DNA of 64,000 nt from assembly GCA_913043205.1 (NCBI GenBank), contig CAJWLF010000013.1, positions 4,787 through 68,786 of the forward strand, read 5' to 3'. Both the position numbers and the translations under genes were made by a program. Source of the stretch: an uncultured Chloroflexota bacterium. Its GTDB lineage: Bacteria > Chloroflexota > UBA11872 > VXNJ01. The notes below the pieces were generated by a model. The model made no database searches, was not told the DNA's origin, and worked only from the letters and a program-made list of their open reading frames with translations. Positions 1-15,968 of this stretch are shown here, piece by piece (position 1 is the stretch's first letter; each line of letters begins with the position of its first letter).

Positions 1-972
1 CAAATGGCCAAGCCATGGTAGCGATACCGTAAATTAATGCTATCCCTAATCCTGTATATCTCTCATATCCAAACAATAAGATTATTCGATACAACAAAGC
101 TGCAGTAAGAGCCGTGGCTATAACGCTTACAAGAGGAGACGGCATTCTAAGGAAGAATTCCTTGTTCTGCCTCTCTGACCACACCCGACCCGTCCCACCA
201 ACATCAACTAGTTTCTGGGATTGAAATTCAAGTAAAGCAAGAGAATCCACGAAGAATATTCCATCATCACCGACGTGTTGAAACTGGAGTTTGGATATAT
301 CAACAGGAGGCTCTAAAACAAAAGAAGTAAAGTAGAAATTAGCTCGTGTATTCCCTATATGCTTACCTACCACACGCCCACTTTGATGCTTAACAGTGGC
401 CCTAACATCGGCTCTATCAAACGCCCATTCGGCAGTTTCAATCCCGACTCTAATTGGATATCTAGTAATATCCCCAGCATCGTCTGTCACAATCATACGG
501 GCTACGGATAACCCCTGCGGTATATGGGCACTAAGGCCACTATGACTAATCATGTCGACCCTAGAAACTGCAGCCATCTCGGGTAGTTCAACGTCAATCA
601 ACTGAAGCTGGTTAGCATTTGCAGCCTGTCCCGGTCCAACCGAAGGAAAGGTGGAGACCGTATATTCATGTCCATCAACAAATATCGAATCTCTCTGTGG
701 AGCACTGTCAGCAAAGGGTTCGGCGATTAAAACAAAAGGTATCAGAGCGATTGGCAATCCTATACCCCAACGCGAAAAGTTCTTATTAAACTTGTTGAAA
801 TATTCGTGATCTGGATCTATCGCCAGACTCTTAGCCATCTCAAATGCAAAAGTACCGTCAGGACTGTATCCATAACCTGCCCGATTGACACCCATCCACA
901 TAGAATAAAACAGGGTCAGGAACACAAATATCAACAACGTAGTACGCCGTGACAATGCTAAAACAAATCTCA
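1..972 (-). CDS. Hypothetical integral membrane protein, partial; the 3' end runs off the window start. It has an N-terminal TM helix, an extracytoplasmic region of about 250 aa, then further TM helices.
   Basis: I translated the minus strand by hand from the ATG at 972: MRFVLALSRRTTLLIFVFLTLFYSMW ... LVSVIATALTAALLYRIILLFGYERYTGLGIALIYGIATMAWPF. There is no stop before position 1. The ORF track lists nothing over 1-981, consistent with an open frame that has no in-window stop. Its start lies 10 nt from the stop of the methyltransferase gene, which suggests one operon. Confidence 0.5.
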
Positions 973-981
973 TAAACCGTG

Positions 982-2193
982 TCATTCTAGCCAAATCCGA
1001 CTGATAGCCAATCCCAATGGACGAGAATCATGAATGCCAGCCGTAGGGACATATTCGTTAATAAACTTGACCTCTACTGAGTCAGTTGTATGACTAGGAA
1101 GCGAATGCGATACAGTGTTCCACGAAGCAGATTCAACATCAAAACGAGTATTAGTGTCTCCAGTTATTATTTCGCCTCGTACCCTACCATTCATACCCTC
1201 CCCACTATAGAACTTAACATTGAGAGTTGCATGGCCATCACACTTCAAAGTTGCAGAAGCATGACCGTTAGTCCATCTCACACACGGAGGCCAAACCTCT
1301 CGTAGATAAAATCCTGATGTCAATTGTGATTCCGGCGCATCGGACATATCTATCACGCTAGAATTGATGCGCGAGTAAGCGTAGCGATCAGCGAATATGT
1401 CATCCGGATAAGAATATCGAGGGTCTCCCGTCTTGCGCGCGCGCATATGTATAACATCCAGCACACCTCTCGCTACCGGAGCAGAATCCAATAACCTTCC
1501 TATAACTTTTAACCACCTAGAATAGTCGTAACCGGGATCGTATCGAGTTTGTATTTCTTCAACTTCATAACCGTTTACCTCGAATAGATTCTTCAGTTCA
1601 TAGGGGACAAACTCTCGATTATGCCTACTAGTCCAACTCCATCCGGAATATGGTGGGTAGAAATTTTTCCATTGAAGAATTTTTTTAAAATTTTCAAGGC
1701 GGAACGCATTCGGTGTACTAACTACAAAATGCCCCCCCGGCTTGAGAATTCGATTTACTTCATGCAAAGTGTGAACAGGATCCCATGCAAGATGCTCGAT
1801 AGTCTCGCAAAGCATCACAAGATCATATGTTTCATCTGGATATGGATAGTCGTCAAATTCCAAATTGAATTTCTCATAAGAAAAACGAATAGGATTAGGC
1901 ATATCTCTGTGCACAAGCTCAATCTCTCCGTCTATACCCCCACTAAAATCGCCTTCGTTAGCTACGTGAATACGGGAAGGGAGATATCTATGCAATAAAC
2001 CGGTCATCAAATAAGGCTGAGCTGCTAATTCAAGCGCAAGAGAGTCAGGCCCTAGGTCAGGTAACAATTCCATCGTAGTCAATATTCTGTCTACTGCTGT
2101 ATTCAGATAATATTGAAGACCTTCACCTTCAACATGCTCAAATCCCACTAGGAACTGTCTAGCCGTATCCGGATTAGGTAAACGATTTTTCAC
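982..2193 (-). CDS. Class I SAM-dependent methyltransferase with a C-terminal Wzt_C-like beta-sandwich domain. It is a candidate glycan chain-terminating or modifying methyltransferase.
   Basis: Methyltransferase motifs DLVMLCETIEHL and LKPGGHFVVSTPN are present. The C-terminal 120 aa (GFYLREVWPPCVRWTNGHASATL ... DSRPLGLAISRIWLE) parallel the Wzt C-terminus in the same cluster. Its start overlaps the GT4 stop by 4 nt. Confidence 0.8.
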   Translation of the reverse strand: MKNRLPNPDTARQFLVGFEHVEGEGLQYYLNTAVDRILTTMELLPDLGPDSLALELAAQPYLMTGLLHRYLPSRIHVANEGDFSGGIDGEIELVHRDMPNPIRFSYEKFNLEFDDYPYPDETYDLVMLCETIEHLAWDPVHTLHEVNRILKPGGHFVVSTPNAFRLENFKKILQWKNFYPPYSGWSWTSRHNREFVPYELKNLFEVNGYEVEEIQTRYDPGYDYSRWLKVIGRLLDSAPVARGVLDVIHMRARKTGDPRYSYPDDIFADRYAYSRINSSVIDMSDAPESQLTSGFYLREVWPPCVRWTNGHASATLKCDGHATLNVKFYSGEGMNGRVRGEIITGDTNTRFDVESASWNTVSHSLPSHTTDSVEVKFINEYVPTAGIHDSRPLGLAISRIWLE

Positions 2194-3794
2194 TGCGACT
2201 CCCTCATCCGAAACACCAAATCTAGCAAGCGTTCTCGAAATGTAGACTCGCTGAATCGTTTCGATGATTGGATCGCAGCTGTCCTTAGCCGCCCAGAAAG
2301 TTTCTGATCACCAATTATCTGCAACGTTCTGTGTTTTAATTCCTTTGCGTTTTTCCAGAGAAATCCATTTGTACCATCTGTAACGAGTTCTGGCTGTCCA
2401 CCTTTTCCTATCACCACCGGAATACACCCTGAAGCCATTGCTTCCACCGTAGTAATACCAAAATGTTCAAACATGACGGGATTCTTATTCACATTTGATC
2501 CGTAACCACTAGCATGCCAGTAGATAGTCGCTTGGCTATAAAGATTCCGTAACGCCTCAAAAGATATATCAGGGTGAAGTACAACCGGCAAACCGTCGGC
2601 CATCCGCTCTAATTCACCAAAATAACGAACGTCAACTGCTCTCGAACCTTTTCCGCCCGCCAGATGTAATTCCCATCCCTCAAGCCCATCGTCAATCATT
2701 GATCGAAAAGCGTTGATGAGGACATCATGGCGTTTGGAATGTCCACCTGCTCCAAAAAACCTCCCAACGCTCAGGATAATATTCTGCTTGTCGCCACAAA
2801 AATAATTTTGAGTCGAGACAGGTGGGTAAAGAATTGGCCCATCACGCTCCCAATAGTGTTGCATCCACCCAAGTGAGAATTCTGATATGGGCGAAATCAG
2901 ATCATAACTGTCAAGAAACTCTAGAGACCCATAACTCCTTACTCCTTCCAAACGAAGGCCTAGAGACATTGCCATCCGACGAAACACCATCTGATACAAA
3001 CGATGCCGCCAGTGCACAATAAATGCGTCAGTGACAGCAACACCAATTTCCCGATTGTCATCAGAACCCATGTCTGCCGGGTTGTAAGTGTCGCATCGGA
3101 TTTCCACATCGAGTTCAGGCCCTGTAGACAACCTAGCGGGAACATCCAATCGCCAAGAAATATATTCACCATCATTCGAATCTATTGTTGTGCGAGCCAC
3201 CTCTTCTCCATGAACACTAGCTTGGATGTTTACTGAACCAAGACCTACTGGACGGAAATTACCCAAAACAATCTCTATATTGATATCGTTCCCAATTAAG
3301 GGGTTTCGCAAACGAAGAACAGATTGATCCGAGCTATATCGAAACCATCCATGCCCAAGCTCCTGAACATCATAAAAACCATCATGGAAATCAGGTACTA
3401 ACAGACATCGAATGATCAACGCCCCTAACAATCTTCGTAATCGCGCCCATAATCCACTTTCTATTGGTGACGGAAATAGCACTAGCAGCAAACTATGTTT
3501 TGCTCCAGAAGGTTGCCCTGTCATAAAAGAGGAATTGATAAACAAGTCATACCGGGACGTGAACTTCTGGAATTTCATAGGGGGCATAGCTGGTACTACC
3601 CGCAAAGATACGTTTGACAAATCGATATTGAATCTTCGTCCTAAATCATCAAGATTTAGACCCTTGTGCGATACCAACTCGACCTCATGATCGTGGGACA
3701 TTACTGATGCGGCCATGCACGAATGCCTTTCCCCTCCTCCCATAGTGTGTAACCATCGGTTATATATTCCAACCTTCATCGATCTACTATCCAT
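2190..3794 (-). CDS. Glycosyltransferase family 4 (GT-B fold) with an inserted Wzt_C-like domain at about aa 135-262
   Basis: The C-terminal GT4 signature is FEHFGITTVEAMASGCIPVV ... GGQPELVTDGTNGFL (EX7E region). The inserted segment GFYDVQELGHGWFRYSS ... DDNREIGVAVTDAFIV matches the shared domain. Confidence 0.85.
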   Translation of the reverse strand: MDSRSMKVGIYNRWLHTMGGGERHSCMAASVMSHDHEVELVSHKGLNLDDLGRRFNIDLSNVSLRVVPAMPPMKFQKFTSRYDLFINSSFMTGQPSGAKHSLLLVLFPSPIESGLWARLRRLLGALIIRCLLVPDFHDGFYDVQELGHGWFRYSSDQSVLRLRNPLIGNDINIEIVLGNFRPVGLGSVNIQASVHGEEVARTTIDSNDGEYISWRLDVPARLSTGPELDVEIRCDTYNPADMGSDDNREIGVAVTDAFIVHWRHRLYQMVFRRMAMSLGLRLEGVRSYGSLEFLDSYDLISPISEFSLGWMQHYWERDGPILYPPVSTQNYFCGDKQNIILSVGRFFGAGGHSKRHDVLINAFRSMIDDGLEGWELHLAGGKGSRAVDVRYFGELERMADGLPVVLHPDISFEALRNLYSQATIYWHASGYGSNVNKNPVMFEHFGITTVEAMASGCIPVVIGKGGQPELVTDGTNGFLWKNAKELKHRTLQIIGDQKLSGRLRTAAIQSSKRFSESTFRERLLDLVFRMRESQ

Positions 3795-5170
3795 CGACTT
3801 ATTGCCTCAGTAAAGGTCAATTGCTGCCTTTTCCTTCGGAAGATCTCTGCCGACACTATGTCTACAGGTAAATTCAACATCACTTTCATCCGTGCAAACA
3901 GCATCGCCCATTCCAAAGGTATACGGAAAGGATTTCGCATTAATTGCTTCAACATAACTGTGCTTGAACCGATAAGTTCCCCAACAAAATACAAGACAGC
4001 ATTGATCCCTTCCTTGCGAGGCCAGTGCTTCCAGATGATATATATCCTGCTGCGCGTCACGTTGTAAGTAAAACCTGGGGACCACTCCTTTGATAGACCT
4101 GCATGATGATGCCTTATGATTGAATTTGGCTCATATTCAATTCTCCATCCGTTACGCCGCATTCGAACTGACAGATCAGTGTCTTCATAGTACATAAATA
4201 TACGTTCATCAAACATGCCAATTTTATGCATTGTGGACAACCTTAAAAGGACCCCAGCACCACAAAAAGCAAATACTTCACAACTAACGTTGTATCTAGT
4301 TCCAATCCAATCATAAAAATGATTGTTCCCAAAGCGCCGAGTGCCTCGATCTCGCGAACTACCGTCCGGTAACAACTCGCTTCCTGCATTCTGAATCAGT
4401 TCACTAGCCATTCTCGATCTGACTTCAAACTCACACAACTCCGCCTTTTTACCTAACGGACCGTAAGCCGCAGTATTGCCATCAACGAGTACTCTGTAGG
4501 AGACTACATCGTTATTAGGTCGAGGGGCCGAGATACGCAAAGCGACGTGATCCAATTCAGTCCGCAAAGGAATAGCTAATTCAGCCTCACCGTTCGTCCA
4601 TCTGAACAATTTACCTTCATCGTCTATTTCCACTGGCCCCACACCGGAACGATATTCTACTTTTGCACTACCTTGAACTTCGTAAAGACGAACACCAAGC
4701 GAACGATTGTCTTCATTTACACCTAACGCTGATGGACAAAATACATCAGAAGAAATAGTTACAGGAACTCGAGGTGTATCAAGTATTAGTTTTGATGTAA
4801 CAGCACCCAATGTGGCGTCTCCTTGTAATCGTTCCACCAATGGATTTAGCCAGTTAGGGTCGACCACAGTATCAGGGTTTACTAGTGCTATAAATGGTCC
4901 AGGTGCACGCCGCATAGCCAAGTTATTACCGTGTGAAAACCCTACGTTAGATCCCGCTTCAATTACATCTACAGACGGGAACATTTTTCGAATGAGATCT
5001 ACTGATCCGTCAGTAGACGCATTATCGACAACAACAACTTCAAACAAATGGCGTGGGTAATTCGAGGCAACTAATGCACTTAAGCAAGATGGTAAAAAAT
5101 CTATGCCGTTGTAATTCAACACAATTACAGTAACGAATGAATGCTGTTTTCGTGCATCGGCTAGCATCAC
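3776..5170 (-). CDS. Glycosyltransferase family 2 (GT-A fold) carrying an internal Wzt_C-like domain
   Basis: The N-terminus reads VTVIVLNYNG ... VVVVDNASTDGS ... the DxD region and YYEDTDLSVRMRRNGWRI. The internal segment LGVRLYEVQG ... GKLFRWTNGEAELAIPL ... YRVLVDGNTAAYGPL matches the shared domain. Confidence 0.85.
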   Translation of the reverse strand: MMLADARKQHSFVTVIVLNYNGIDFLPSCLSALVASNYPRHLFEVVVVDNASTDGSVDLIRKMFPSVDVIEAGSNVGFSHGNNLAMRRAPGPFIALVNPDTVVDPNWLNPLVERLQGDATLGAVTSKLILDTPRVPVTISSDVFCPSALGVNEDNRSLGVRLYEVQGSAKVEYRSGVGPVEIDDEGKLFRWTNGEAELAIPLRTELDHVALRISAPRPNNDVVSYRVLVDGNTAAYGPLGKKAELCEFEVRSRMASELIQNAGSELLPDGSSRDRGTRRFGNNHFYDWIGTRYNVSCEVFAFCGAGVLLRLSTMHKIGMFDERIFMYYEDTDLSVRMRRNGWRIEYEPNSIIRHHHAGLSKEWSPGFTYNVTRSRIYIIWKHWPRKEGINAVLYFVGELIGSSTVMLKQLMRNPFRIPLEWAMLFARMKVMLNLPVDIVSAEIFRRKRQQLTFTEAISRWIVDR

Positions 5171-5173
5171 GAA

Positions 5174-6873
5174 TTATTCGACACGAATTTCTCGGATGGC
5201 TATCCCAAGTTCTCGGGTATCGGGATCTATACCCATATTATCAGGCACAAAGGTCTTATCTATTTCAATTACAACTTCAAGGCGAGTAGGTTGATTCACA
5301 GGAGTGAGAGGAATTGCAAGGTCCTCAAAATCCATCCCACTCAAGCGAAACCGCGTAATCTCTTGACCATTCAACAACACCCTACCATCGGCACTAGCTT
5401 CCCGATGCAGTGGTCGACAAGCACGAATGACCAGTGTCCCTTTACCAACATCCTGAGTTATCACAGCGCACGCGCTACTTCCCATCCAACGTACTTCAGG
5501 AGGCCAATTTTCTACGGGATACCAACCACTTCCTAAGTATTCATCTTCACCATTGCCCATCTGTAAACATTCTGGAGCATGAGACCATGCAAGAGAATAT
5601 GGCAACGTAGTCATATCAGGCTGCGGGATACGCACCAAGTTGGTCCCAGCAAACGAATCGTTCTCCTCTTTTTTTATACCCCAGCGAGAATGCATAAAAA
5701 TTGCCCCGCGATTGCGGTTTTCTGATCTTCCCATATAGAGGGTTAGAACTTGCCTTAGGACATGTAAGGGCTTTTCTTCATTTCCAATTTGCCAAACCCC
5801 AACAGAAACCTTGTAGACACCCGGCCCCATATGCAACGAGCCCAATGATAATTCCACTTGACCAGAACCTAAGTCCAATCGACATTCAGAACACTCATCT
5901 ATAGATGAACTCTCAAACACGTGAAGCCCATCACTGCGAGATACAGAACACCCAAACACCACATCCTCGATCACTGATGTACAAGAGTAGCTCATACGAA
6001 TACGAATAGACGCCCCAGGTAAAACTGTGTGAGTGTTGTTGCCAGACTCATCGATGCACATAACTTCTGACAGTACTACACCTTCTTCCCCGCCTTCGTC
6101 ACCGGCTGTCTGCTTATACTCCTCACCAGACGTCGGACCGCCAACATGTTGCAAATATGATTGAATTACATCTCGGGCCAAACCACACTGCACCACTCGT
6201 CCCTCCTCAATCCACAGAACCCGATCACAAAACCTTCGAACCAAAATTGGATCGTGAGATACAAACAACATCGTTCGACCATCACGCTTAGCCACTGCCA
6301 AAGCGTCGTAACATTTCCGGGCAAAGGCCGCATCACCCACAGCCAAGACCTCATCTATAAGCAATACATCGGGACGCACGGCGATCGCTATTGAAAACCC
6401 TAGCCGCATATACATGCCGGATGAATAATGCTTGATTGGTGTATCGATAAATTGTTCCAACTCAGCAAATGTCACTATGCTGTCATAAAGAGATTCCATT
6501 TGCTGCCGGTCAATTCCCAAAAACGCCCCATTTAAAAAGATATTCTCGCGGCCACTTAAATCGGGGTGAAAGCCCGCCCCTAGTTCCAATAAACCAAAGA
6601 CCCGTCCTTCGACATCCACCCTACCCAGGTCGGGCTTCAAAGTACCGCTAAGCAGTTTGAGAATCGTACTTTTACCAGAACCATTGCGTCCGATGATGCC
6701 AAGGGTTTCACCAGCTTCTACCTCAAACGTTACTTCTTTCAGCGCCCAGAATTGCTCTACATCATCCGTGTTACGCCCTACAGCTTTGGTGACAAGATCA
6801 AAAAAGCTTTGATCACGCGAATGTCGCAATTCAAACTTTTTTGATACCTCATTGAATTGCACAGCTTTTGTCA
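5174..6873 (-). CDS. wzt: O-antigen/polysaccharide ABC exporter ATP-binding protein (Wzt/TagH type) with a C-terminal carbohydrate-binding domain
   Basis: The Walker A motif is GIIGRNGSGKST, the ABC signature LSGGMYMRLGFSIA, and the Walker B motif LLIDEVLAVGD. The C-terminal region (about 470-603) reads GWYPVENWPPEVRWMG ... DPDTRELGIAIREIRVE. The track ORF extends to 6985, but the likely true start is the ATG at 6873, directly abutting the wzm stop (ATG of MTKAVQFNEVSKKFEL). Confidence 0.85.
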
Positions 6874-7758
6874 TTAAACAAGCTCCGCAAATCGATGAGC
6901 AAATCGTCGCAGCATCCACCACCCCAGAACGAGAGCAAAAACAGAAATTAATACGGTAATAGCCGTGTGACGAATTGGAAGCCAACCATACAGCATCGTG
7001 TAGCGATAATCAGAAATCAAAGTCGCCATAGGATTAAGAGTAAATACCCAACGGTGGATATCCAATCCTAGGAAACGCGTGTTTGGAACGACGGACAATG
7101 CATAAAAAATAGGCGTTAAGAAAAACCAAGCTAGCATACCTATATCAACCACCTGTTCAAGATCACGCAAGAAGACATTCACAGCTGCCATCACCATGGC
7201 TAGGCCCGTCACAAACATCAGATGTAAACACATAATCAAGGGGACAAACCAAATTGTTGCTGACACGTTTCCACGGAAAACAAAGAGCGCCAACACAAAC
7301 AGTGAAAAAGCAATGACGAAGTGAATGAACGAAGATAAGACTGCCGACAGCGGTAATAATTCTCTAGGAAAATAAACCTTGTTTATCAAATTAGGGTTAC
7401 CAGTGATGCTCCTCATTGCCGAAACAAGCGCGTTTTGAGTAAAAGTCCACGGGATAAGTCCTGCCAAAAGAAAAAGTGGATAGTCCGGAATGTCCGTACT
7501 GGTGAGAACATTGAATACCACAGTAAACACGAGCATCATCAATATCGGACTTAACATGGACCAGCCGAAGCCAAGAACAGAACCTCGATATCTAACCTTT
7601 AAATCGCGCGCCACCATGGTACGCAACAGCCCTGAATAAGATACGATCTCATGCACTGGATGCCATATCGAACCAAATAGCAACTTGTTACATTTGTTTA
7701 AACTTTTCATAAATCCTAATATCACAACAAACTTAAGCAATTTAAACGGATGCAGCAT
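6874..7758 (-). CDS. wzm: ABC-2 family polysaccharide exporter permease (Wzm/TagG type)
   Basis: The protein is multi-TM and contains LKVRYRGSVLGFGWSMLSPILMMLVFTVVFN, typical of the ABC-2 family. It sits immediately upstream of wzt. The start may be an internal Met (MKSLNK...). Confidence 0.8.
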   Translation of the reverse strand: MLHPFKLLKFVVILGFMKSLNKCNKLLFGSIWHPVHEIVSYSGLLRTMVARDLKVRYRGSVLGFGWSMLSPILMMLVFTVVFNVLTSTDIPDYPLFLLAGLIPWTFTQNALVSAMRSITGNPNLINKVYFPRELLPLSAVLSSFIHFVIAFSLFVLALFVFRGNVSATIWFVPLIMCLHLMFVTGLAMVMAAVNVFLRDLEQVVDIGMLAWFFLTPIFYALSVVPNTRFLGLDIHRWVFTLNPMATLISDYRYTMLYGWLPIRHTAITVLISVFALVLGWWMLRRFAHRFAELV

Positions 7759-7825: not shown

Positions 7826-8500
7826 ATGGAGATAGCTTGGTTCGGAAGCTATTGCTTCCGTATACGCAACCGAAACTCAATAGCTCTCGTAGACCCTTAC
7901 CTTCCCGACCCCAAATATCAAAACCTCCAAATTAAGGCTGATGTTATTTCTATCAGTCAGATTGGTCGAAAGATTCGGAAAGTAGTGCCGAATCAGCGCG
8001 AGGCGGTATACCGTGTCGAGCGCCCAGGAGAATACGAAATAGGTGGTATCTTTATAGACGCCATCCCGGTAACCATCACGTCTGAAGAGCAAGGTTCTGA
8101 AAATCTTCATCCAATCGCGGTTACTCTAACACTAGACGACCTTACTGTATGTCATTTAGGGCAATTAGATAATGTGCCAAGCTCTTCCATAATTGAGCAA
8201 CTCGGCTCCCCAGACATTCTGATTTTACCAGCAGGAGGAACCGAAAACCTGACTTGCGAACAATCTGTCAAATTGGTCAAATCATTGTCTCCCGCATACG
8301 TGATACCTATAAGTCATCCAGATCCTGACAGTCTGGCAACCAGTTCTATTGATAAATTCATCAAAGAATTAGGCGTTGAAAAACCAGAAATTGCAAATAA
8401 TTTAAATATTTCACGCGGAGGCATAACTCATGATGTTACATCTGTGGTTTTATTACAGTCCCGTACCAGAGAAAAACGACCACCTGGGGAAAACGCGTAA
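7826..8500 (+). CDS. MBL-fold (Lactamase_B_3-like) protein that appears to lack the HxHxDH metal-binding motif
   Basis: The N-terminus MEIAWFGSYCFRIRNRNSIALVDPYL follows the pattern of UPF0173/MBL-fold hydrolases (MKITWLGHSAFLIE..ILIDP). The position that normally holds HxHxDH instead reads ADVISISQIG. Confidence 0.5.
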   Translation: MEIAWFGSYCFRIRNRNSIALVDPYLPDPKYQNLQIKADVISISQIGRKIRKVVPNQREAVYRVERPGEYEIGGIFIDAIPVTITSEEQGSENLHPIAVTLTLDDLTVCHLGQLDNVPSSSIIEQLGSPDILILPAGGTENLTCEQSVKLVKSLSPAYVIPISHPDPDSLATSSIDKFIKELGVEKPEIANNLNISRGGITHDVTSVVLLQSRTREKRPPGENA

Positions 8501-8585: not shown

Positions 8586-10238
8586 ATGAAGCCACGCTAT
8601 ATTTTTGTCACTGGCGGAGTAATGTCCGGCGTAGGTAAAGGAGTAACCTGTGCATCCATTGGGCGTCTTCTAAAAAGTCAGAGTCTCCGAGTGTCTCATG
8701 TAAAACTTGACCCTTACATCAATGTTGACCCAGGAACTATGAACCCTGCACAACACGGAGAAGTGTTCGTGACTGCCGATGGGGCGGAAACAGATCTGGA
8801 TCTTGGACATTATGAACGATTCACTGATGAGAATCTAACTCAACTCAGCAACCTCACTAGTGGGCAAGTATACGAGGACGTTATCCGTAGAGAGCGACGA
8901 GGTGATTACTTAGGGGGAACAATTCAAGTAATTCCTCACGTAACAGACGTGATCAAAACGCGAATAATAGAAGCAGGCGAAACTAGCAGAGCAAACGTGG
9001 TAGTAGTAGAGGTAGGGGGCACTGTTGGTGACATGGAAGGGTTGCCTTTTTTTGAAGCCCTGCGCCAGCTAAGACGGGAGCTAGGTCCAGAGAATGTCAT
9101 GTATGTACACGTCACCTTTCTTCCCCATATAGGACCTACTGGAGAGCTAAAGACAAAGCCAACTCAGCATAGCGTTTCTATGCTCCGCAGTATTGGAATC
9201 ATGCCCGATGTAATTGCATGTCGAAGTGACCTCCCATTTGAACAAGACACCAGAGAAAAAATTGCCTTGTTCTGCGATGTGGATAATGAGGCCGTTATTT
9301 CACTGACATCCGTAGACAACATTTATTCAGTGCCGTTAATTCTGCAGGACGAGGGAATGGGTACTTTGATAGCAGAAAAGCTAGGATTGGATGCAGTACC
9401 TGCGGATCTCACAGATTGGCAGGCAATGGTGGAGCGTATGTCTACATCGGATAACCCTGTGGAGATCGCTGTCGTTGGCAAATATGTTGGGGCTACAGAT
9501 GCCTATATCAGTGTAGAACAAGCCTTGCACCATGGGGCACTAGCCCATGGCAGACAAATAAAAATCCGCTGGATAGATTCTGAGCACATTGCAGAAGGTG
9601 GACCAACCAGCATTTTAGATGGTATAGATGGAATCGTCGTACCTGGTGGGTTTGGAGACCGAGGAATTGAGGGCAAAATTGCAGCTGCTCATCATGCCCG
9701 CAATGCAGGAATCCCCTATCTTGGATTATGTTTAGGTATGCAAGTCGCAGTAATTGAATATGCTCGGAATGTACTAGGCCTAGCCGATGCAAATAGCATT
9801 GAATTCGATCCACATACAACTAATCCTGTGATTTCACCTATGGATGATCACTACGGTAGAACTATAGATATGGGGGGCACTATGCGACTAGGATCACACC
9901 GATGTGCAATTGGTCAGGGTACAGTAGCATCAAAGGCCTACGGCACCACAACCACAACACAAGAAAGACACAGGCACCGTATGGAATTTAACAACGACTA
10001 TCTGGAAACCATGGAAAGCCATGGTTTCATCGCTAGTGGCATTAATCCAGATCGTAATTTGGTAGAAATTATCGAGATTACTGACCACCCTTGGTTTGTA
10101 GGAGTCCAGTTCCATCCGGAATTCCAATCACGTCCTAACAATCCCCATCCCTTATTCTCATCATTTATCAAAGCCAGTTGTAAACCCCAAAAAGCATTGA
10201 CGGACAACCCAATTATTCAGCAAACTAGCTTCTCGTAA
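8586..10238 (+). CDS. pyrG: CTP synthase
   Basis: The N-terminus is [30 protein letters not shown]. The glutamine amidotransferase domain contains GLCLGMQ. Length is 550 aa. Confidence 0.95.
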
Positions 10239-10393
10239 TTCTGTTGTTTGCTGTACCGACAAACAATACAAATCATGGAAGAGACTGAACCACGGATACT
10301 TCGAGTTTCTACTATTAGTAGAAATAGAAAGGCACTAACTTTCTTTAATACGTTCTGTTTTGGAGCAATTATGTCAATAAATGGATTCCAATT

Positions 10394-11683
10394 ATGAGTG
10401 TCATGTGTGTTGTAGGAACCCAGTGGGGGGACGAAGGCAAAGGCAAAATCGTTGACTACGTATCTTCTGAGGCCGATTTTGTTATAAGGTTTCAAGGTAG
10501 CGACAATGCGGGTCACTCTGTCATAAATCAGTATGGTGAATTCGGTCTACATCTAATACCTTCCGGTATCTTTCACACCCAAGCTACAAATCTGCTCGGC
10601 CCAGGAACAGGCATCAACGTCGAATCTTTCATGCAGGAGCTGGCTTCCCTGCGTAAATCCGCACCCGAGCTGGAAATGGAAAAGCGGATCCTAATTGCCG
10701 AAAGGGCCCACGTGATAATGCCATACCATCTATCAATCGACTCCGCCGAAGAAGAAGGTCGAGGGGAACTTGTGCAGGGAACCACACGGAGAGGCAATGG
10801 GCCCGTATATTCGGACAAAACAGCTCGCTCAGGAGTTGTGGTGGCAGATCTATTTGAGGAAGAATATTTACGACGATACTTACCACATGTGATCAGACAA
10901 AAAAACTTATATCTTGAAGCCGTATTAGGAGCTGATCCGGTAGATGCAGGAGAAATGATAGAGAGGTGTCTAGCTTGGGGGGAGCAGATCCGGCCCTATG
11001 TGGTAGATTCGTTTCCAATTATCAAGGGGGCCCTAGAACAAAATAAGAATATTGTACTCGAAGGTCAATTAGGGATAATGAGAGACTTAGACTGGGGCCA
11101 TTATCCATATGTAACCTCATCAAGCCCATCCGCAGGCGGGGCCTCAACAGGAGCAGGAATATCTCCTAATCAAATTGACAAAGTGATCGGAGTAGCAAAA
11201 GCATTTACATCGTCCGTGGGAGAGGGTCCATTCCCAACCGAGCTCAATGATGAAGTCGGAGAAAAACTAAGGATTCAAGGTCAGGAGTTTGGCGTATCCA
11301 CCGGAAGACCCAGACGAGTAGGTTGGATGGATACAGTTGCAGTTAAATTCGCATCCGCTCTTAACGGCCTGACAGGTTTGGCCCTAACAAAGATTGATCT
11401 ATTGGATTCCTTCCGCAATATTCCAATTTGCACAGCATACAAAGTCAGAGGAAAGCAAATTGACTGGGTTCCCAACACGCACCAACTTTACCGAGCCGAA
11501 CCTGTGTATGAAGAACTCCCTGGCTGGAATCAACCCACAGCCGGAATAAGCGAATGGGAAGACTTACCACCCGAGGCCCAAAATTATGTATTGCGTATCG
11601 AAGAACACATTGGAGTACCTGTACAATTTATCGGGACAGGTAGGCATCGTGACAACATAATTGCGAGAAATCACAAAATCTGA
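10394..11683 (+). CDS. purA: Adenylosuccinate synthetase
   Basis: The N-terminus is MSVMCVVGTQWGDEGKGKIVDY. Length is 429 aa. Confidence 0.95.
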   Translation: MSVMCVVGTQWGDEGKGKIVDYVSSEADFVIRFQGSDNAGHSVINQYGEFGLHLIPSGIFHTQATNLLGPGTGINVESFMQELASLRKSAPELEMEKRILIAERAHVIMPYHLSIDSAEEEGRGELVQGTTRRGNGPVYSDKTARSGVVVADLFEEEYLRRYLPHVIRQKNLYLEAVLGADPVDAGEMIERCLAWGEQIRPYVVDSFPIIKGALEQNKNIVLEGQLGIMRDLDWGHYPYVTSSSPSAGGASTGAGISPNQIDKVIGVAKAFTSSVGEGPFPTELNDEVGEKLRIQGQEFGVSTGRPRRVGWMDTVAVKFASALNGLTGLALTKIDLLDSFRNIPICTAYKVRGKQIDWVPNTHQLYRAEPVYEELPGWNQPTAGISEWEDLPPEAQNYVLRIEEHIGVPVQFIGTGRHRDNIIARNHKI

Positions 11684-11747
11684 GCATAAAACGTTGTCAG
11701 TCTGCCTCCAAAACAATCCTAAGATATTAAATTTGCATAAAACTAGC

Positions 11748-11776
11748 TTTGCTAGAACACCATAAAACAATATACT
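11748..11776 (+). promoter_or_regulatory. Candidate sigma70 promoter of the pyr operon: -35 TTTGCT/TTGCTA, 16-17 nt spacer, -10 TATACT
   Basis: The sequence is tttgctagaacaccataaaacaatatact. It lies about 10 nt upstream of the PyrR-binding loop. Confidence 0.4.
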
Positions 11777-11785
11777 CTCCATGCC

Positions 11786-11818
11786 TTTAATCCGACCCAG
11801 TGAGGCGGAAAGGATTGC
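11786..11818 (+). promoter_or_regulatory. PyrR-binding loop (anti-antiterminator) in the pyr leader RNA
   Basis: The sequence ctttaatccgacccagtgaggcggaaaggatt matches the conserved PyrR RNA motif UUUAAUCC-AGAGAGGCU-GCAAGG. The flanking stem is aatcc/ggatt. Confidence 0.7.
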
Positions 11819-11862
11819 GTGTTATCTATGGTGTGTCTTTTACTGATTAGCATTGGTTATAG

Positions 11863-11891
11863 CCCTCCCAGTGTCGGGAGGGTTTTTCTTT
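11863..11891 (+). terminator. Attenuator/terminator hairpin of the pyr leader: ccctccc-agtgtc-gggaggg followed by tttttcttt. The 3' arm carries the pyrR Shine-Dalgarno sequence.
   Basis: It is a perfect 7-bp GC-rich stem with a 6-nt loop and a T-tract ending 5 nt before the pyrR ATG at 11896. Confidence 0.7.
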
Positions 11892-11895
11892 AGTT

Positions 11896-12438
11896 ATGGT
11901 AAGAACCATTTTGGATCCAGGGGCCATGCGTCGAGCCATAGAACGTATCTCCCATGAGATACTTGAACAAAATCAAGGCTGTACAGACCTGGTGCTTGTT
12001 GGCATCCGCACTAGAGGAGTCCCTCTTGCTGAAAGAATCGCCGAAGTCATTCATCGAATAGAATCACATCGCCCGCCGGTTGGGCAACTCGACATTACTA
12101 TGTATCGAGACGATCTGTCGATGAAGATGCGCCCACCGTCTGTGAGCCCCACAGATATACCACACAGTCTTGATGGTATTAGTGTAGTAATTGTAGATGA
12201 CGTTTTGTATACAGGGCGCAGTGTTCGGGCAGCAATGGACGCATTGAATGACCACGGCCGACCTAGTACCATCCAATTGGCTGTCATGATTGACCGAGGA
12301 CATCGTGAACTGCCAATAAGGGCCGATTACGTCGGCAAAAACGTCCCTACCGGACAAGATGAGCAAGTTGCACTACAAATATCCGAGATCGACGGTGAAG
12401 ACCTAGTGTCTCTGACTCGTGCCGGTGATGAATTATGA
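11896..12438 (+). CDS. pyrR: Bifunctional pyrimidine operon regulator / uracil phosphoribosyltransferase PyrR
   Basis: The PRPP-binding motif [21 protein letters not shown] is present. Length is 180 aa. It is the first gene of the operon. Confidence 0.9.
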
Positions 12439-13397
12439 CTAGCTTCGAACAAGCAAATTTGTTGGACCTGGATACTTACAGCAACGAAGATATTTCTGCA
12501 GTACTTGAGACAGCAGAAGCTATGCTGCCAATCTTGCAGAGACCAATTGCACGAGTGCCTACCTTACGTGGGAAAACGGTAGCGATGGTTTTTTCTGAAC
12601 CAAGCACACGAACGCGAGTTTCATTCGAACTAGCAGCAAAGAGCTTGGGAGCTGATGTCATCACCATAGTTAATTCAGGTAGTAGTATCGAGAAAGGAGA
12701 GTCGATAACAGATACCGTGAAAACCGTACAATCTTTAGGGGCAAACATGCTCGTCATAAGACATCAAGCATCGGGCGTCCCTTATTTGGCTGCCAAAACT
12801 CTAGACATCCCAATAATCAACGCTGGAGATGGGTCCCATGCTCATCCTAGTCAATCCCTGTTAGACATGTTTACTATTAATTCAGAATTGGGTGAAATCA
12901 AAGGCAAGCGTGTAGTCATTGTTGGAGACATACTTCATAGCCGGGTAGCAAGATCCAATATCTGGGGTCTCACAAAAATGGGAGCCACAGTGGTTCTCAG
13001 TGGTCCTTCTCAGTTGTTACCCTCTCACCTGCAAGAAATTACAGATTTTCAAGATCGAGTTTCAACCGACTCTAATTTGGATCGGGCAATAGAAGGGGCC
13101 GACGTAATAATGGCACTTCGCATACAAAAAGAGCGTATGACGAGTATGTGTATGCCTGATATAAGAGAATATGCGCAACTATATTCAATCAACAAAAACC
13201 GCTTAGGGTTGGCAAATCCAAACGCCATATTGATGCATCCAGGACCAATAAACCGTGGCGTCGAAGTTTCTGATGAAGTGGCCTATGGAGAGCAATCCAA
13301 AATACAGTCACAAGTGATCAATGGTGTCGCAACACGTATGTCGATCATATACCTCTTGTCTGGTAATAGCAGGGAGGTTCCGATTGGCCAAAGCTAA
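12435..13397 (+). CDS. pyrB: Aspartate carbamoyltransferase catalytic subunit
   Basis: Contains the motifs STRTRVSFE and HPxQ (HPSQSLLD). It overlaps pyrR by 4 nt. Confidence 0.95.
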
Positions 13398-14727
13398 GAG
13401 TATCCTAATCCAAAACGGTCGAATTATAGACCCAGCCCACGGACATGATGACATTTCCGATCTACTGGTTATTAATGGCCGAATAGAGGCCATAGGCCAT
13501 AACCTGGCAGCACCCAACGGATCTACTATCATCGATGCAAACAAATTAATTGTATGCCCCGGGCTAGTAGACCCTCACTGTCATTTGCGACAACCTGGAT
13601 TTGAATACAAAGAAACCATTCTCAGTGGATCTAGGGCAGCTGCTGCAGGAGGATTTACCACAATCTGTAGTATGGCTAACACAAAGCCAGTTGTAGATTC
13701 CCTCGAAGTACTACAAACAATATTAAAACTTGCCAAGGATGAAGCTTCTATACGAGTACTCCCATTGGCATCCATCACAATGAATATGCAGGGTAAGCAA
13801 CTAGTTCAAATGGGTGAACTGGCATCGGAAGGAGCGATAGGGTTTTCTGATGACGGAATCCCTCTGGGCGATCCACTCATTATGCGACACGCACTAGAAT
13901 ATGCATCTCAATTTGAGTTACCAATCGCCAACCATGCCGAAGACCCTAGCCTAATAGCCGGATCTTCAATGAACGAAAGTCTCGTGTCAATAAAGTTAGG
14001 GCTTGTAGGGGCACCGAGACAAGCTGAAGAAATAATGTTGGCGCGGGACTTAGCTCTCACTGAATTAACCGGAGGTAAATATTACGCTCTGCATATTAGC
14101 TCCAGAGGATCGGTACCAATCCTTCGTCAAGCACGAGAACATGATATCAACTTTTTTTCGGAAGTTACACCACACCACTTAACGCTCACCGATTCAATAG
14201 TGAATGGACGAGAAACCCCAAGCGAAGCACGCTTGGCTCCTTACGATGGGGATACAAAAGTTAACCCACCGCTGAGAGAGATCGAGGATGTACAGGCATT
14301 GAGAACGGCCCTGGCAGAGGGCATCATTGACTGTATCGGGACAGATCACGCCCCACACGCATCGCATGAGAAGGATCTGGAATATGCTAGAGCAGCACCA
14401 GGCTTTTCGTGCTTTGAAACTGCGCTAGCATCATGTCTATCCCTAGTCCACGATGGCACCATGGAAATGCCTGCCCTCCTGGAAAAGATGACTATCAATC
14501 CATCGCGTGCATATGGATTGCCATACGGCACATTAGGCATTGGCTCAACTGCAGACATCCTAGTTTTTGACCCAACAAAGGATTGGGTTGTCGATAAGAA
14601 AGCGTTCCTGTCGAAGGGTAAAAACACTCCATATCACGGTCTACCCCTAAAAGGAAAAGTGCTTTGGACCATCTTCGAAGGGGCAGTCGTCTATAACTCA
14701 TCTGATCACGAAAGTTCACACAATTGA
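13384..14727 (+). CDS. pyrC: Dihydroorotase
   Basis: Contains LVDPHCHLRQPG and GTDHAPH. The track ORF starts at 13321 inside pyrB. The more likely start is the TTG at 13384, preceded by AGGGAGG at 6 nt spacing. Confidence 0.85.
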   Translation: MAKAKSILIQNGRIIDPAHGHDDISDLLVINGRIEAIGHNLAAPNGSTIIDANKLIVCPGLVDPHCHLRQPGFEYKETILSGSRAAAAGGFTTICSMANTKPVVDSLEVLQTILKLAKDEASIRVLPLASITMNMQGKQLVQMGELASEGAIGFSDDGIPLGDPLIMRHALEYASQFELPIANHAEDPSLIAGSSMNESLVSIKLGLVGAPRQAEEIMLARDLALTELTGGKYYALHISSRGSVPILRQAREHDINFFSEVTPHHLTLTDSIVNGRETPSEARLAPYDGDTKVNPPLREIEDVQALRTALAEGIIDCIGTDHAPHASHEKDLEYARAAPGFSCFETALASCLSLVHDGTMEMPALLEKMTINPSRAYGLPYGTLGIGSTADILVFDPTKDWVVDKKAFLSKGKNTPYHGLPLKGKVLWTIFEGAVVYNSSDHESSHN

Positions 14728-15968
14728 TCCACCCTGAACCTTCGATTAAGGATGACAATCCGTTACAACCATCATTAGCCAAGACTTTGACCGTCTTGAC
14801 TCTTGAAACCGGCCAACATTTCTTTGGTTATGGATACGGAGCAAACCAAGACGCTCGTGGTGAATTAGTATTCAACACGAGCATGACGGGATACCAAGAA
14901 ATATGCACGGATGCCTCCTACCGTTCCCAAATTGTGACCCTAACTTATCCCCTAATCAACAACTATGGGACCAATCTTGAAGATGTTGAATCACGACGAC
15001 CGTGGATTTCGGGGCTAGTGGTCCGAGAACTATCTCCTAATTCGAGTAACTGGAGGCATAAGAAAAGTCTCCACAGATTTCTTTTGCAAAACAATATCCC
15101 AATCGTTGGAGGCATAGATACAAGAAAGCTTGTTCGAATATTGCGCGGCGGCGGTATACACCGGGCGTTTATCACACAAACTCCAAGTGATTTCCCTGAT
15201 CCTGGAACATTCATTTGGACTACAGGACAGGTGCAAGGGTTGGACAGATTCTTAGCTGATCAAGTAGATCGTGCCAGATCAGTTTCGCCATTGTCAGACC
15301 AAAACCTCGTAGAAGAAGTCACTAGCATGAACCCAAGTTTCTTTGAAGATTCGTATTGGGGCCCCTGGAGAGCCCCTAATAAACGCAAGGCAACGCATAG
15401 AATCGCAGTTCTAGATTGTGGGGCAAAAACGAATATCCTCAGGTCTTTAGCCATTCGAGGCTGTGAAGTAACCCTGCTCCCATATGACACTAGCCCAGAA
15501 GACATAACCAGTCTTGATCCTGCAGGAATAGTTGTAGCAAATGGACCTGGTGATCCTGAACAAGCTGATATTGCAATTAATTCGATACGGAGAATCATCG
15601 GTAAGATACCAATAATGGGTATTTGTTTGGGTCATCAATTAGTGGCGTTAGCAATTGGAGCTTCAACCAGCCGCTTAAAGTTCGGCCACCGGGGAGCCAA
15701 CCACCCAGTCAAAGATTTGTTAACCGGCCAAGTCCACATCACTTCTCAGAACCATGGCTTTCAGGTGGATGAAAAATCAATCCCAGCCTGTAATGGTTAC
15801 CGGGTCAGTCATGTAAATTTGAATGACGGGTCTGTCGAGGGTATAACTCACGATTCCCTTCCAATATTCACTATTCAGTACCATCCTGAAGCATCACCAG
15901 GCCCTCAAGATAATCAATATCTATTCGACCGGTTCCTTGATATGGTGGAGAAATTTGAAAAACAATAA
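14724..15968 (+). CDS. carA: Carbamoyl-phosphate synthase small (glutaminase) subunit
   Basis: The glutamine amidotransferase active site reads GICLGHQL with H at HPEASPGP. The TTG start overlaps the pyrC stop (TTGA). Confidence 0.9.

What the first reader, a model, noticed from the sequence alone, without database searches (positions are those of the whole stretch)
982..6873. One Wzt-C-like beta-sandwich module of about 120 aa is present in four consecutive genes of the glycan cluster
Four proteins carry the module: the Wzt C-terminus at 5174-6873, the methyltransferase C-terminus at 982-2193, an insertion in the GT4 at 2190-3794 (aa about 135-262), and an internal segment of the GT2 at 3776-5170. 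All share the motif series G(F/W)Y..E..(V/F)RW(T/M)xG..A ... V..NG.E..R..L ... D.R.LG(I/V)A(I/V)..I. In ABC-transporter-dependent O-polysaccharide pathways the Wzt C-terminal domain is a carbohydrate-binding module that recognises the chain-terminating modification. Attaching the same fold to each biosynthetic enzyme suggests every step recognises the same glycan epitope. It could be a built-in ruler or processivity device, or the product of domain shuffling within one cluster. That is an unusually modular organisation.
Basis: partly seen in the sequence, partly recalled or inferred. Interest (0 to 1): 0.6.

Follow-up and report, generated by a model that had tools for sequence, protein, structure and literature searches.

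The report
Shared sugar-binding-like domain on four glycan-pathway proteins
Four neighbouring genes for making and exporting a cell-surface sugar polymer in a marine Chloroflexota bacterium each carry one copy of the same uncharacterised 120-residue domain, which is a second, different domain from the known Wzt sugar-binding domain, so it could explain how the enzymes and the exporter stay on one growing chain.

Summary
Wzt, a GT2, a GT4 and a methyltransferase each carry one copy of a ~120-aa beta-sandwich. A family profile built from 174 outside sequences gives E 2e-37, 4e-23, 7e-13 and 8e-12; no other window ORF scores below E 2.6.

The module is not Wzt_C. Pfam Wzt_C (PF14524) matches a different Wzt segment (ORF aa 298-428). 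The module is an extra domain after it (aa 480-603). Profile-profile comparison of the two gives 0.2% probability.

The family is uncharacterised and overlaps Pfam DUF7024. The AlphaFold model (pLDDT 93) most resembles the CBM6/35/36 jelly-rolls and the BcsB carbohydrate-binding domains.

In GT2 the module is a circular permutant: the last two strands come first. This is supported by split HMM hits, conserved motif order in orthologues and a pLDDT 92 model.

The wzm-wzt-GT2-GT4(-MT) operon with these modules is conserved in about 50 Chloroflexota loci. Copies group by gene type, so they are ancient paralogues, not a recent shuffle.

Most likely function (inferred, not shown): a cytoplasmic glycan-binding tether on every pathway component. 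The main rival is a protein-docking domain. I rate it a new variant of a known kind, interest about 0.55.

The parts
5177..5548 (-). Module copy 1: extra C-terminal domain of Wzt (aa 480-603 of the 603-aa ORF, or aa 443-566 of the 566-aa protein). Collinear.
   Evidence: Family HMM E 2.4e-37, hmm 2-127. AlphaFold model pLDDT 93.4, nine-strand beta-sandwich. Foldseek neighbours are CBM35/36/6 and BcsB.
5702..6094 (-). Canonical Wzt_C carbohydrate-binding domain of Wzt. A separate domain, not the shared module.
   Evidence: Pfam PF14524 E 9.2e-15 at ORF aa 298-428. Aligns with A. aeolicus Wzt 8dku/7k2t through aa 361. hhalign against the module gives probability 0.2%.
5174..6874 (-). wzt gene (566 aa). 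NBD, then Wzt_C, then a ~50-aa linker, then the module. The ATG at 6874 overlaps the wzm stop codon.
   Evidence: (gene callers give 566 aa).
6874..7758 (-). wzm, the ABC-2 permease.
   Evidence: Pfam ABC2_membrane E 5.6e-15.
4418..4771 (-). Module copy 2: circularly permuted module inserted in the GT-A domain of GT2 (aa 134-251). The piece at aa 135-165 corresponds to the last strands plus DxRxLG. The piece at aa 173-251 corresponds to strands 1-7.
   Evidence: Split HMM hits in swapped order: hmm 93-124 at aa 135-165, then hmm 6-67 at aa 173-234. The re-permuted sequence gives one full-length hit of 50 bits, E 7.6e-15. Motif order is conserved in orthologues. Full-length model pLDDT 91.6, with strand order b8-helix-b9-b1..b7.
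3776..5170 (-). GT2 family glycosyltransferase gene (464 aa).
   Evidence: Pfam Glycos_transf_2 E 1.6e-20 at aa 14-123 and Glyco_trans_2_3 at aa 296-354.
3027..3389 (-). Module copy 3: collinear module inserted in the N-terminal half of GT4 (aa 136-256).
   Evidence: Family HMM E 7.3e-13, hmm 6-123. BLASTP against the Wzt module E 1e-3. Present in 50 orthologues.
2190..3794 (-). GT4 family glycosyltransferase gene (534 aa).
   Evidence: Pfam Glycos_transf_1 E 5.7e-19 at aa 335-508.
985..1332 (-). Module copy 4: C-terminal domain of the methyltransferase (aa 288-403). Collinear.
   Evidence: Family HMM E 4e-23. 31% identity to the Wzt module.
982..2193 (-). Class I SAM methyltransferase gene (403 aa). 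Candidate chain-capping enzyme.
   Evidence: Pfam Methyltransf_23 and Methyltransf_11. The role as terminator is an inference.
1..985 (-). N-terminal 328 aa of a conserved 752-aa polytopic membrane protein. It is the next gene of the same operon and runs off the window. It carries no module.

Best explanation
Shown:
- The operon wzm-wzt-GT2-GT4-MT encodes an ABC-transporter-dependent glycan assembly and export pathway. It continues beyond the window with a 752-aa membrane protein, a Trm112-like protein and a radical-SAM/SPASM enzyme.
- All four soluble components carry one copy of a ~120-aa beta-jelly-roll domain.
- The domain belongs to an uncharacterised family that overlaps Pfam DUF7024.
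- It is unrelated in sequence to Wzt_C.
- Its predicted fold is closest to CBM6/35/36-type carbohydrate-binding modules.
- It is C-terminal in Wzt (after the canonical Wzt_C domain) and in the methyltransferase. It is inserted in the N-terminal Rossmann half of GT4. It is inserted as a circular permutant in the GT-A domain of GT2.
- The four copies are ancient paralogues kept in place across a clade of Chloroflexota.

Inferred:
- The domain is a cytoplasmic glycan-binding (or lipid-linked-glycan-binding) module.
- It tethers each enzyme and the exporter to the nascent polymer. This raises local substrate concentration and passes the chain from the two polymerising transferases to the capping methyltransferase and then to Wzt.
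- The canonical Wzt_C domain still checks the cap.
For: - Homology of the four copies.
- Real family: 265 clusters at E<=1e-3 in 1.84 billion representatives.
- Partner domains are almost all glycan-modifying enzymes or exporters: SAM methyltransferases, radical SAM/SPASM, Wzt (ABC_tran plus Wzt_C), Wzy_C, GDSL esterases, hexapeptide acetyltransferases and GT2.
- Tandem arrays of up to four copies occur.
- Pfam DUF7024 passes its threshold exactly on module copies of P0017, P0031, P0036 and P0054.
- Model pLDDT is 93.4. Foldseek top hits are CBM35, CBM36, CBM6 and BcsB CBD, E 2e-4 to 5e-3, TM 0.45-0.62.
- Some Wzt proteins have an NBD followed directly by the module, with no Wzt_C. P0039 (424 aa) is an example. 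There the module sits where the transporter's CBM normally sits.
- The module-bearing Wzt > GT2 > GT4 (> MT) order is conserved: 59 of 71 loci have at least two module genes and 39 have at least three.
- Permutation in GT2. Circular permutation has a precedent in this fold class, CBM36/CBM60 (Montanier 2010, cited in PMC6852018).
- No TM segments in the four proteins, so the modules are cytoplasmic.
- A methyltransferase together with a Wzt_C-bearing Wzt fits cap-dependent export as in A. aeolicus (PMC9445017).
Against: - No binding experiment exists for any family member, and no paper mentions DUF7024.
- Fold similarity is moderate (TM about 0.5-0.6, identity <=18%), and beta-sandwiches also serve as protein-protein modules.
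- The residues shared by the four copies (E, RW, P, DxRxLG) are invariant family-wide. They lie on the N- and C-terminal strands. They may be structural rather than a ligand site.
- Identity between the four copies in one genome is only 16-29%, so nothing shows that they bind the same thing.
- The window copies themselves do not reach any Pfam threshold.
- The methyltransferase gene is missing from most related operons, so the four-gene set is not obligatory.
Confidence: 0.6

Rival explanations
1. The module is a protein-protein docking domain. Like-with-like beta-sandwich contacts assemble GT2, GT4, MT and Wzt into one membrane-associated complex (a metabolon), without touching the glycan.
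For: - The same domain sits on every soluble component of the pathway and on the exporter, and this is conserved across loci.
- Wzt CBDs are known to dimerise by strand exchange (PMC9445017).
- The conserved residues lie on the terminal strands rather than in variable loops.
- Profile searches give weak matches to Ig-like adhesin repeats.
Against: - The family is also fused to single enzymes in many unrelated contexts and occurs in tandem arrays of four. That is typical of binding modules, not of a dedicated docking code.
- The structural neighbours are overwhelmingly CBMs.
- In some Wzt proteins the module replaces Wzt_C.
Confidence: 0.2
2. The module targets soluble enzymes to the membrane or to the polyprenyl-phosphate carrier. 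It would be a generic lipid or carrier handle rather than a glycan-epitope reader.
For: - The shared residues are family-wide invariants regardless of enzyme type. This suggests a generic ligand.
- All substrates of these enzymes are lipid-linked, by established knowledge of ABC-transporter-dependent pathways.
Against: - The four modules are acidic (pI 4.4-5.9, net charge -3 to -12). They have no hydrophobic segment. This is unfavourable for binding anionic membranes or pyrophosphate without a metal.
- No similarity to known lipid-binding sandwiches appears among the top structural hits.
Confidence: 0.08
3. One reading: the modules are copies of the Wzt_C cap-binding domain, so every enzyme recognises the chain-terminating modification. 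Alternatively, they are the product of recent domain shuffling within the cluster.
For: The module is at the C-terminus of Wzt and is a beta-sandwich with a CBM-like fold.
Against: - Pfam Wzt_C maps to a different Wzt segment and to none of the other proteins.
- hhalign probability is 0.2%.
- No Wzt CBD appears in the top 50 fold hits.
- The modules group by gene type across about 50 loci, and between-type identity is 16-29%. The duplication is therefore old.
Confidence: 0.04

Closest known systems
Wzt C-terminal carbohydrate-binding domain (Pfam Wzt_C, PF14524; structures from E. coli O9a, R. terrigena and A. aeolicus)
   Same: A cytoplasmic jelly-roll appended to the NBD of an O-antigen-type ABC exporter. 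In some homologues (P0039) the module occupies exactly that position.
   Different: No sequence or profile similarity. In the window it co-exists with a genuine Wzt_C in the same protein. It is also present on the biosynthetic enzymes, which Wzt_C is not.
Pfam DUF7024 (PF22895), domain of unknown function
   Same: Overlapping membership. DUF7024 passes its gathering score on segments that the module profile also hits (P0017 574-693, P0054 324-447, P0031, P0036).
   Different: None of the four window copies reaches DUF7024, even at E<=10. They form a divergent branch. No function or literature exists.
CBM6 / CBM35 / CBM36 (and the CBM36 permutant CBM60), carbohydrate-binding modules of glycoside hydrolases
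   Same: Best structural neighbours (Foldseek E 2e-4 to 1e-3, TM 0.5-0.6). Circular permutation within this fold class is documented and recurs here in GT2.
   Different: Identity <=18% and no Pfam CBM hit above threshold (only CBM60 at E 0.044 for the MT copy). The known modules are extracellular and hydrolase-linked, whereas these are cytoplasmic and attached to biosynthetic enzymes. Ca-dependent binding is untested.
BcsB carbohydrate-binding domains of bacterial cellulose synthase
   Same: A jelly-roll domain inside a polysaccharide synthesis and secretion machine. It is among the top fold hits (5ej1 TM 0.61, 6yg8).
   Different: Periplasmic, part of a synthase-dependent pathway, and without sequence similarity.
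Lectin or CBM domains on glycosyltransferases and terminators: ppGalNAc-T ricin-type lectin domain, and the predicted Ig-like CBM in the Klebsiella O7 terminator ORF6
   Same: A binding domain that recruits a transferase or terminator to an already glycosylated substrate. ppGalNAc-Ts are the top PDB neighbours of the GT2 model, through the GT-A domain. [quoted passage not shown]
   Different: Different folds (beta-trefoil, Ig-like). Those domains are terminal rather than inserted or permuted. In those systems only one protein carries the domain, not every component.

Membership tests
Pfam Wzt_C (PF14524) | Match to the family HMM above the gathering score (30.4 bits). | tested here: not met
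   Wzt_C matches only Wzt ORF aa 298-428 (55.3 bits). There is no hit on the module of Wzt, MT, GT4 or GT2, even at E<=10.
Pfam Wzt_C (PF14524) | Profile-level homology to Wzt_C domains. | tested here: not met
   hhalign of the module alignment against 47 Wzt_C-region sequences: probability 0.2%, E 0.3 over 19 columns.
Pfam Wzt_C (PF14524) | Structural similarity to solved Wzt CBDs. | tested here: inconclusive
Pfam DUF7024 (PF22895) | Match to the family HMM above the gathering score (24.4 bits). | tested here: not met
   No hit for the four window modules at E<=10.
Pfam DUF7024 (PF22895) | Homology through intermediate sequences. | tested here: met
   Module-profile hits and DUF7024 hits coincide on P0017, P0031, P0036 and P0054.
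CBM6/35/36 fold class (beta-jelly-roll CBMs) | Jelly-roll fold superposable on family members. | tested here: met
   Foldseek E 2.3e-4 to 1e-3, probability 1.00, TM 0.5-0.62 against 2w3j, 7ay3, 1w0n, 1uxx and 1gmm, for a model with pLDDT 93.
CBM6/35/36 fold class (beta-jelly-roll CBMs) | Sequence membership in a CAZy or Pfam CBM family. | tested here: not met
   No CBM family above threshold. CBM60 at E 0.044 (14.7 bits against a cut-off of 28.2) for the MT copy only.
CBM6/35/36 fold class (beta-jelly-roll CBMs) | Demonstrated carbohydrate binding and, where relevant, a Ca2+ site. | not testable with these tools
   Needs binding assays or a structure with ligand. Model coordinates could not be inspected.
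ABC-transporter-dependent (Wzm/Wzt) glycan pathway | ABC-2 permease plus an NBD with a C-terminal CBD. | tested here: met
   ABC2_membrane, ABC_tran and Wzt_C. E 1.8e-65 to A. aeolicus Wzt.
ABC-transporter-dependent (Wzm/Wzt) glycan pathway | Cytoplasmic polymerising glycosyltransferases in the same operon. | tested here: met
   GT2 and GT4, with overlapping genes and no TM segments.
ABC-transporter-dependent (Wzm/Wzt) glycan pathway | A chain-terminating enzyme whose product the CBD recognises. | not testable with these tools
   A SAM methyltransferase is present, but its substrate is unknown, and it is absent from most related operons.

The most novel reading that the evidence does not exclude
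The module is a pathway-wide 'substrate handle'. Both polymerising transferases, the capping enzyme and the exporter hold the same nascent lipid-linked polymer (or each other) through paralogous copies of one jelly-roll domain. Polymerisation, termination and export would then be coupled by shared binding domains rather than by a scaffold protein or coiled-coil ruler. This would be a previously undescribed solution to coordination in ABC-transporter-dependent glycan assembly, and it is widespread in Chloroflexota.
Probability: 0.3. Interest if true: 0.75.

Novelty: new variant of a known kind. Interest (0 to 1): 0.55.

Why it matters
How ABC-transporter-dependent pathways coordinate chain extension, capping and export is known for only a few proteobacterial models, through coiled-coil rulers, stoichiometry and a Wzt CBM. 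The 2024 Klebsiella study states that a CBM had been seen in only one terminator enzyme.

Here a CBM-like domain sits on every soluble component, next to a canonical Wzt_C. The arrangement is conserved over about 50 genomes. The phylum's envelope glycans are essentially unstudied.

The finding assigns a fold and a testable role to an uncharacterised family overlapping a Pfam DUF that is fused to many glycan-modifying enzymes. It provides a clean natural example of domain insertion and circular permutation. It also points to a cultured relative, Thermoflexus hugenholtzii JAD2, which encodes a Wzt with this module and a large GT2-domain protein with a collinear copy and could be used for experiments.

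Tried and rejected
- The search for homologous proteins with the Wzt module alone found nothing. With a 35-sequence module alignment it found only 2 hits. The word-index search is too insensitive for this family. The exhaustive representative search was needed.
- The search for related loci with the broad alignment failed because no conserved stretch was found. A narrower Wzt-type alignment worked, but it biases the loci towards Chloroflexota Wzt genes.
- PDB sequence searches with the module (a RuBisCO hit at E 0.008 is spurious) and with the family profile gave nothing usable.
The GT2 model therefore used hits of the last protein search.
- I tested whether the large loop of the downstream 752-aa membrane protein is a fifth module. 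It is not: HMM E 1.2 and hhalign probability 1.8%.
- The PDB sequence search with GT4 aligned only the C-terminal domain. The statement that the module is an insertion in the N-terminal Rossmann half therefore rests on its position relative to Pfam Glycos_transf_1 and the N-terminal GGGE-type start.
- I considered and rejected chance or low-complexity similarity, recent intra-cluster duplication or gene conversion and membrane anchoring by hydrophobic segments.
- Mann, Kimber and Whitfield 2019 (Glycobiology), on CBM organisation in Wzt proteins, could not be read. I cannot exclude that tandem or alternative Wzt CBMs are mentioned there.

Full report
**Anatomy.** The left end of the window carries a run of minus-strand genes with overlapping or abutting ends: wzm 6874-7758, wzt 5174-6874, GT2 3776-5170, GT4 2190-3794 and a methyltransferase 982-2193. 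The longest wzt ORF starts at a TTG at 6985. Gene callers on identical contigs use the ATG at 6874, which overlaps the wzm stop codon and gives 566 aa.

Pfam assigns the following:
- Wzm: ABC2_membrane.
- Wzt: ABC_tran plus Wzt_C.
- GT2: Glycos_transf_2, split into two parts (aa 14-123 and aa 296-354).
- GT4: Glycos_transf_1 at aa 335-508.
- MT: class I methyltransferase domains at about aa 110-213.

NCBIfam adds only TagH/Wzt-type exporter similarity. None of the four soluble proteins has a hydrophobic segment, whereas Wzm has many.

**Is the shared module real?** Yes.
- BLASTP among the proteins aligns the MT C-terminus with the Wzt C-terminus (31% over 134 aa, E 1e-8). It aligns GT4 aa 146-256 with Wzt aa 484-599 (E 1e-3).
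- An HMM made only from the MT and Wzt segments, searched against all 429 six-frame ORFs of the window, finds GT4 (E 4e-5) and GT2 (E 0.015). The next ORF is at E 1.7.
- The same two-sequence profile, run exhaustively against 1.84 billion representative proteins, finds 265 clusters at E<=1e-3 and 46 at E<=1e-10.
- A family HMM built from 174 of those outside segments scores the window proteins as follows: Wzt 2.4e-37, MT 4e-23, GT4 7.3e-13 (aa 136-256, hmm 6-123) and GT2 7.6e-12. No other window ORF scores below E 2.6.
- Family-wide near-invariant residues are a Gly and a Glu in strand 1, Arg-Trp in strand 2, a Pro, and Asp-x-Arg-x-Leu-Gly before the last strand.

**It is not Wzt_C.**
- Pfam Wzt_C matches Wzt ORF aa 298-428 (E 9e-15). 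The module is a further domain at aa 480-603, after a ~50-residue linker.
- None of the four module segments hits Wzt_C or any other Pfam family, even at E<=10. The only hit is a sub-threshold CBM60 match for the MT copy.
- hhalign of the module alignment against 47 Wzt_C regions gives probability 0.2%.
- The window Wzt aligns with the solved full-length A. aeolicus Wzt (8dku, 7k2t; E 1.8e-65) over aa 40-361, that is, the NBD plus most of the CBD. The remainder has no counterpart.

**What family is it?**
- Pfam DUF7024 (PF22895) passes its gathering score on P0017, P0031, P0036 and P0054, exactly on segments that the module profile also hits (for example P0017 574-693 against 578-695).
- The module therefore belongs to an uncharacterised family overlapping DUF7024, and the window copies lie outside Pfam's model.
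- No paper in the library mentions DUF7024.
- No solved structure is detectable by sequence.

**Fold.**
- With a 35-sequence alignment, AlphaFold2 gives a nine-strand beta-sandwich for the Wzt copy (pLDDT 93.4, pTM 0.87).
- Foldseek against the PDB returns CBM35 (2w3j), CBM36 (7ay3, 1w0n, 1ux7), CBM6 (8j3x, 1uxx, 1gmm) and the BcsB carbohydrate-binding domains (6yg8, 5ej1). E-values are 2e-4 to 5e-3 and TM 0.45-0.62.
- No Wzt CBD is in the top 50.

**Circular permutation in GT2.**
- The family HMM hits GT2 in two pieces in swapped order: hmm 93-124 at aa 135-165, followed by hmm 6-67 at aa 173-234.
- When the two halves of the insertion are swapped in silico, the result is one full-length hit (hmm 6-124, 50 bits, E 7.6e-15).
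- In 20 orthologous insertions the invariant DxRxLG precedes the invariant E...RW.
- The same pattern is seen in the GT2 next to wzt in the related loci L001-L052. It is also seen in 72 of the 120 best database homologues: 48 with both pieces and 24 with only the N-part.
- A full-length GT2 model (45-sequence MSA, pLDDT 91.6, pTM 0.89) shows aa 134-251 as an all-beta domain. Its element order corresponds to b8-helix-b9-b1...b7 of the Wzt model.
- Circular permutation is documented within this fold class for CBM36/CBM60 (Montanier et al. 2010, cited in PMC6852018).
- In the Thermoflexus hugenholtzii MAG loci L054 and L064 and the unnamed Chloroflexi MAG locus L070, a ~1000-aa GT2-containing protein carries a collinear copy.

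**Conservation and age.**
- A genome scan with Wzt-type modules returned 71 loci. Nearly all are Chloroflexota MAGs (marine water column, sponge and other sources), with a few archaea.
- Counting module-bearing ORFs per locus gives 12 loci with four, 27 with three and 20 with two.
- The recurrent order is Wzt > GT2 > GT4 (> MT).
- The fuller operon is wzm-wzt-GT2-GT4-(MT)-752-aa membrane protein-(Trm112)-radical SAM.
- The methyltransferase is present in only about 13 of these loci.
- Over the region common to all copies, modules of the same gene type are on average 38-56% identical between loci. Different types within one locus are 16-29% identical. Every module's nearest neighbour is of its own type (152 of 152).
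- The four copies are thus ancient paralogues that diverged before this clade radiated. They are not a recent shuffle and have not been homogenised.

**Context of the family.**
- Among 81 representatives, the partner domains are SAM methyltransferases (18), radical SAM/SPASM (11), Wzt-type ABC_tran plus Wzt_C (9), Wzy_C (5), GDSL esterases, hexapeptide acetyltransferases and GT2.
- The module is C-terminal in 97 cases, internal in 49 and stand-alone or fragmentary in 22. Tandem arrays of up to four copies occur.
- Some Wzt proteins have the NBD followed directly by the module, with no Wzt_C. Examples are P0039 (424 aa) and the ORF of L059. There the module sits where the transporter's CBM normally is.

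**Mechanism.**
- Shown: a CBM-fold domain distinct from Wzt_C sits on every soluble component of a conserved ABC-transporter-dependent operon, on the cytoplasmic side.
- Inferred: it binds the nascent, lipid-linked glycan and so tethers the two transferases, the putative capping methyltransferase and the exporter to the chain. The canonical Wzt_C would still read the cap, as shown for methylated caps in A. aeolicus (PMC9445017).
- The insertion sites fit this reading. One is in the N-terminal half of a GT-B enzyme, which is the acceptor-binding side in this fold. The other is between the two halves of the GT-A domain. This point is established knowledge plus inference.
- Against a cluster-specific 'same epitope' reading: the residues shared by the four copies are those invariant across the whole family in unrelated enzymes, and they lie on the terminal strands.
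- The main rival is a docking domain that assembles a complex.
- A membrane or carrier handle is less likely, because the modules are acidic (pI 4.4-5.9).

**Comparison with what is known.**
- CBMs on Wzt are textbook.
- A predicted Ig-like CBM on one terminator (Klebsiella O7 ORF6) was reported with the remark that no other terminator has one (PMC11231755).
- ppGalNAc-transferases, which are the top PDB neighbours of the GT2 model through their GT-A domain, use a lectin domain to follow glycosylated substrates.
- I found no description of one binding-type domain on all components of such a pathway, nor of a second, non-Wzt_C domain on Wzt. However, the key bioinformatic survey (Mann et al. 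2019) could not be read.
- I therefore rate this as a new variant of a known kind.

**Verdict.** Function remains inferred.

Noticed in passing
window 1-985 (- strand); L072 7209-10804: The operon does not end at the methyltransferase. Window 1-985 encodes the N-terminal 328 aa of a conserved 752-aa polytopic membrane protein. A crude scan gives about 11 hydrophobic segments and a ~195-aa loop after the second one. It has no Pfam or PDB match. A Trm112-like 72-aa protein and a radical-SAM/SPASM enzyme follow. The set is conserved in about 30 related loci. It may be a GT-C-like transferase or ligase for the exported glycan, which is speculation.
   Followed up: partly
window 41719-45087 (-), 45277-46938 (+), 59033-60646 (-): Three Cpn60/TCP-1 family (PF00118) genes lie within 20 kb. 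One is double-length (1122 aa) with three matched stretches, and it sits divergently next to a 553-aa partial-match paralogue. This is an unusual chaperonin-like set.
   Followed up: no
window 47145-49532 (+): A glycyl-radical enzyme (PFL-like plus Gly_radical, E 8e-150) lies directly beside the chaperonin-like genes, in what appears to be a surface-ocean Chloroflexota genome (Tara station 125 surface samples).
   Followed up: no
P0039 (424 aa); L059 459-1757: Wzt variants in which the NBD is followed directly by the module, with no Wzt_C domain. The module seems able to replace the canonical transporter CBM.
   Followed up: partly
L054 10342-13260; L064 and L070 10540-13581: Thermoflexus hugenholtzii MAGs (L054, L064) and an unnamed Chloroflexi MAG (L070) carry a ~1000-aa GT2-containing protein with a collinear, non-permuted module next to a module-bearing Wzt. 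T. hugenholtzii JAD2 is a cultured species and a possible experimental system, and the collinear form is a possible ancestral state of the GT2 insertion.
   Followed up: partly
P0017 (709 aa), P0037 (1117 aa), P0054 (1095 aa): Family members with three or four tandem module copies. P0054 combines three copies with an FkbM methyltransferase and a PglD-like acetyltransferase.
   Followed up: partly
related loci L005-L030: Most related operons lack the module-bearing methyltransferase but keep Trm112 plus radical SAM. Trm112 is known as a methyltransferase partner, so capping chemistry may differ between lineages.
   Followed up: partly
window 985-1332 (MT module): The MT and Wzt copies are the most similar pair (about 29-31% identity) and share a WPP motif that is absent from the GT2 and GT4 copies. 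This may hint that the two C-terminal copies (capping enzyme and exporter) share a ligand distinct from that of the inserted copies.
   Followed up: no
window 1-64000: GC skew on the + strand is strongly negative where genes are on the - strand (-0.13 to -0.26) but only about 0 to +0.05 where genes are on the + strand, and the cumulative skew falls monotonically. No tRNA gene or Rfam family was found in 64 kb.
   Followed up: no
window 8586-19985 (+): The glycan operon is flanked by housekeeping genes: a divergent metallo-beta-lactamase-fold gene (7826-8500), pyrG, purA, pyrR and, judged only from ORF sizes and order, what looks like a pyrimidine and carbamoyl-phosphate synthase operon. It is therefore not in an obvious mobile island. 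GC content is uniform at about 0.44-0.47.
   Followed up: no
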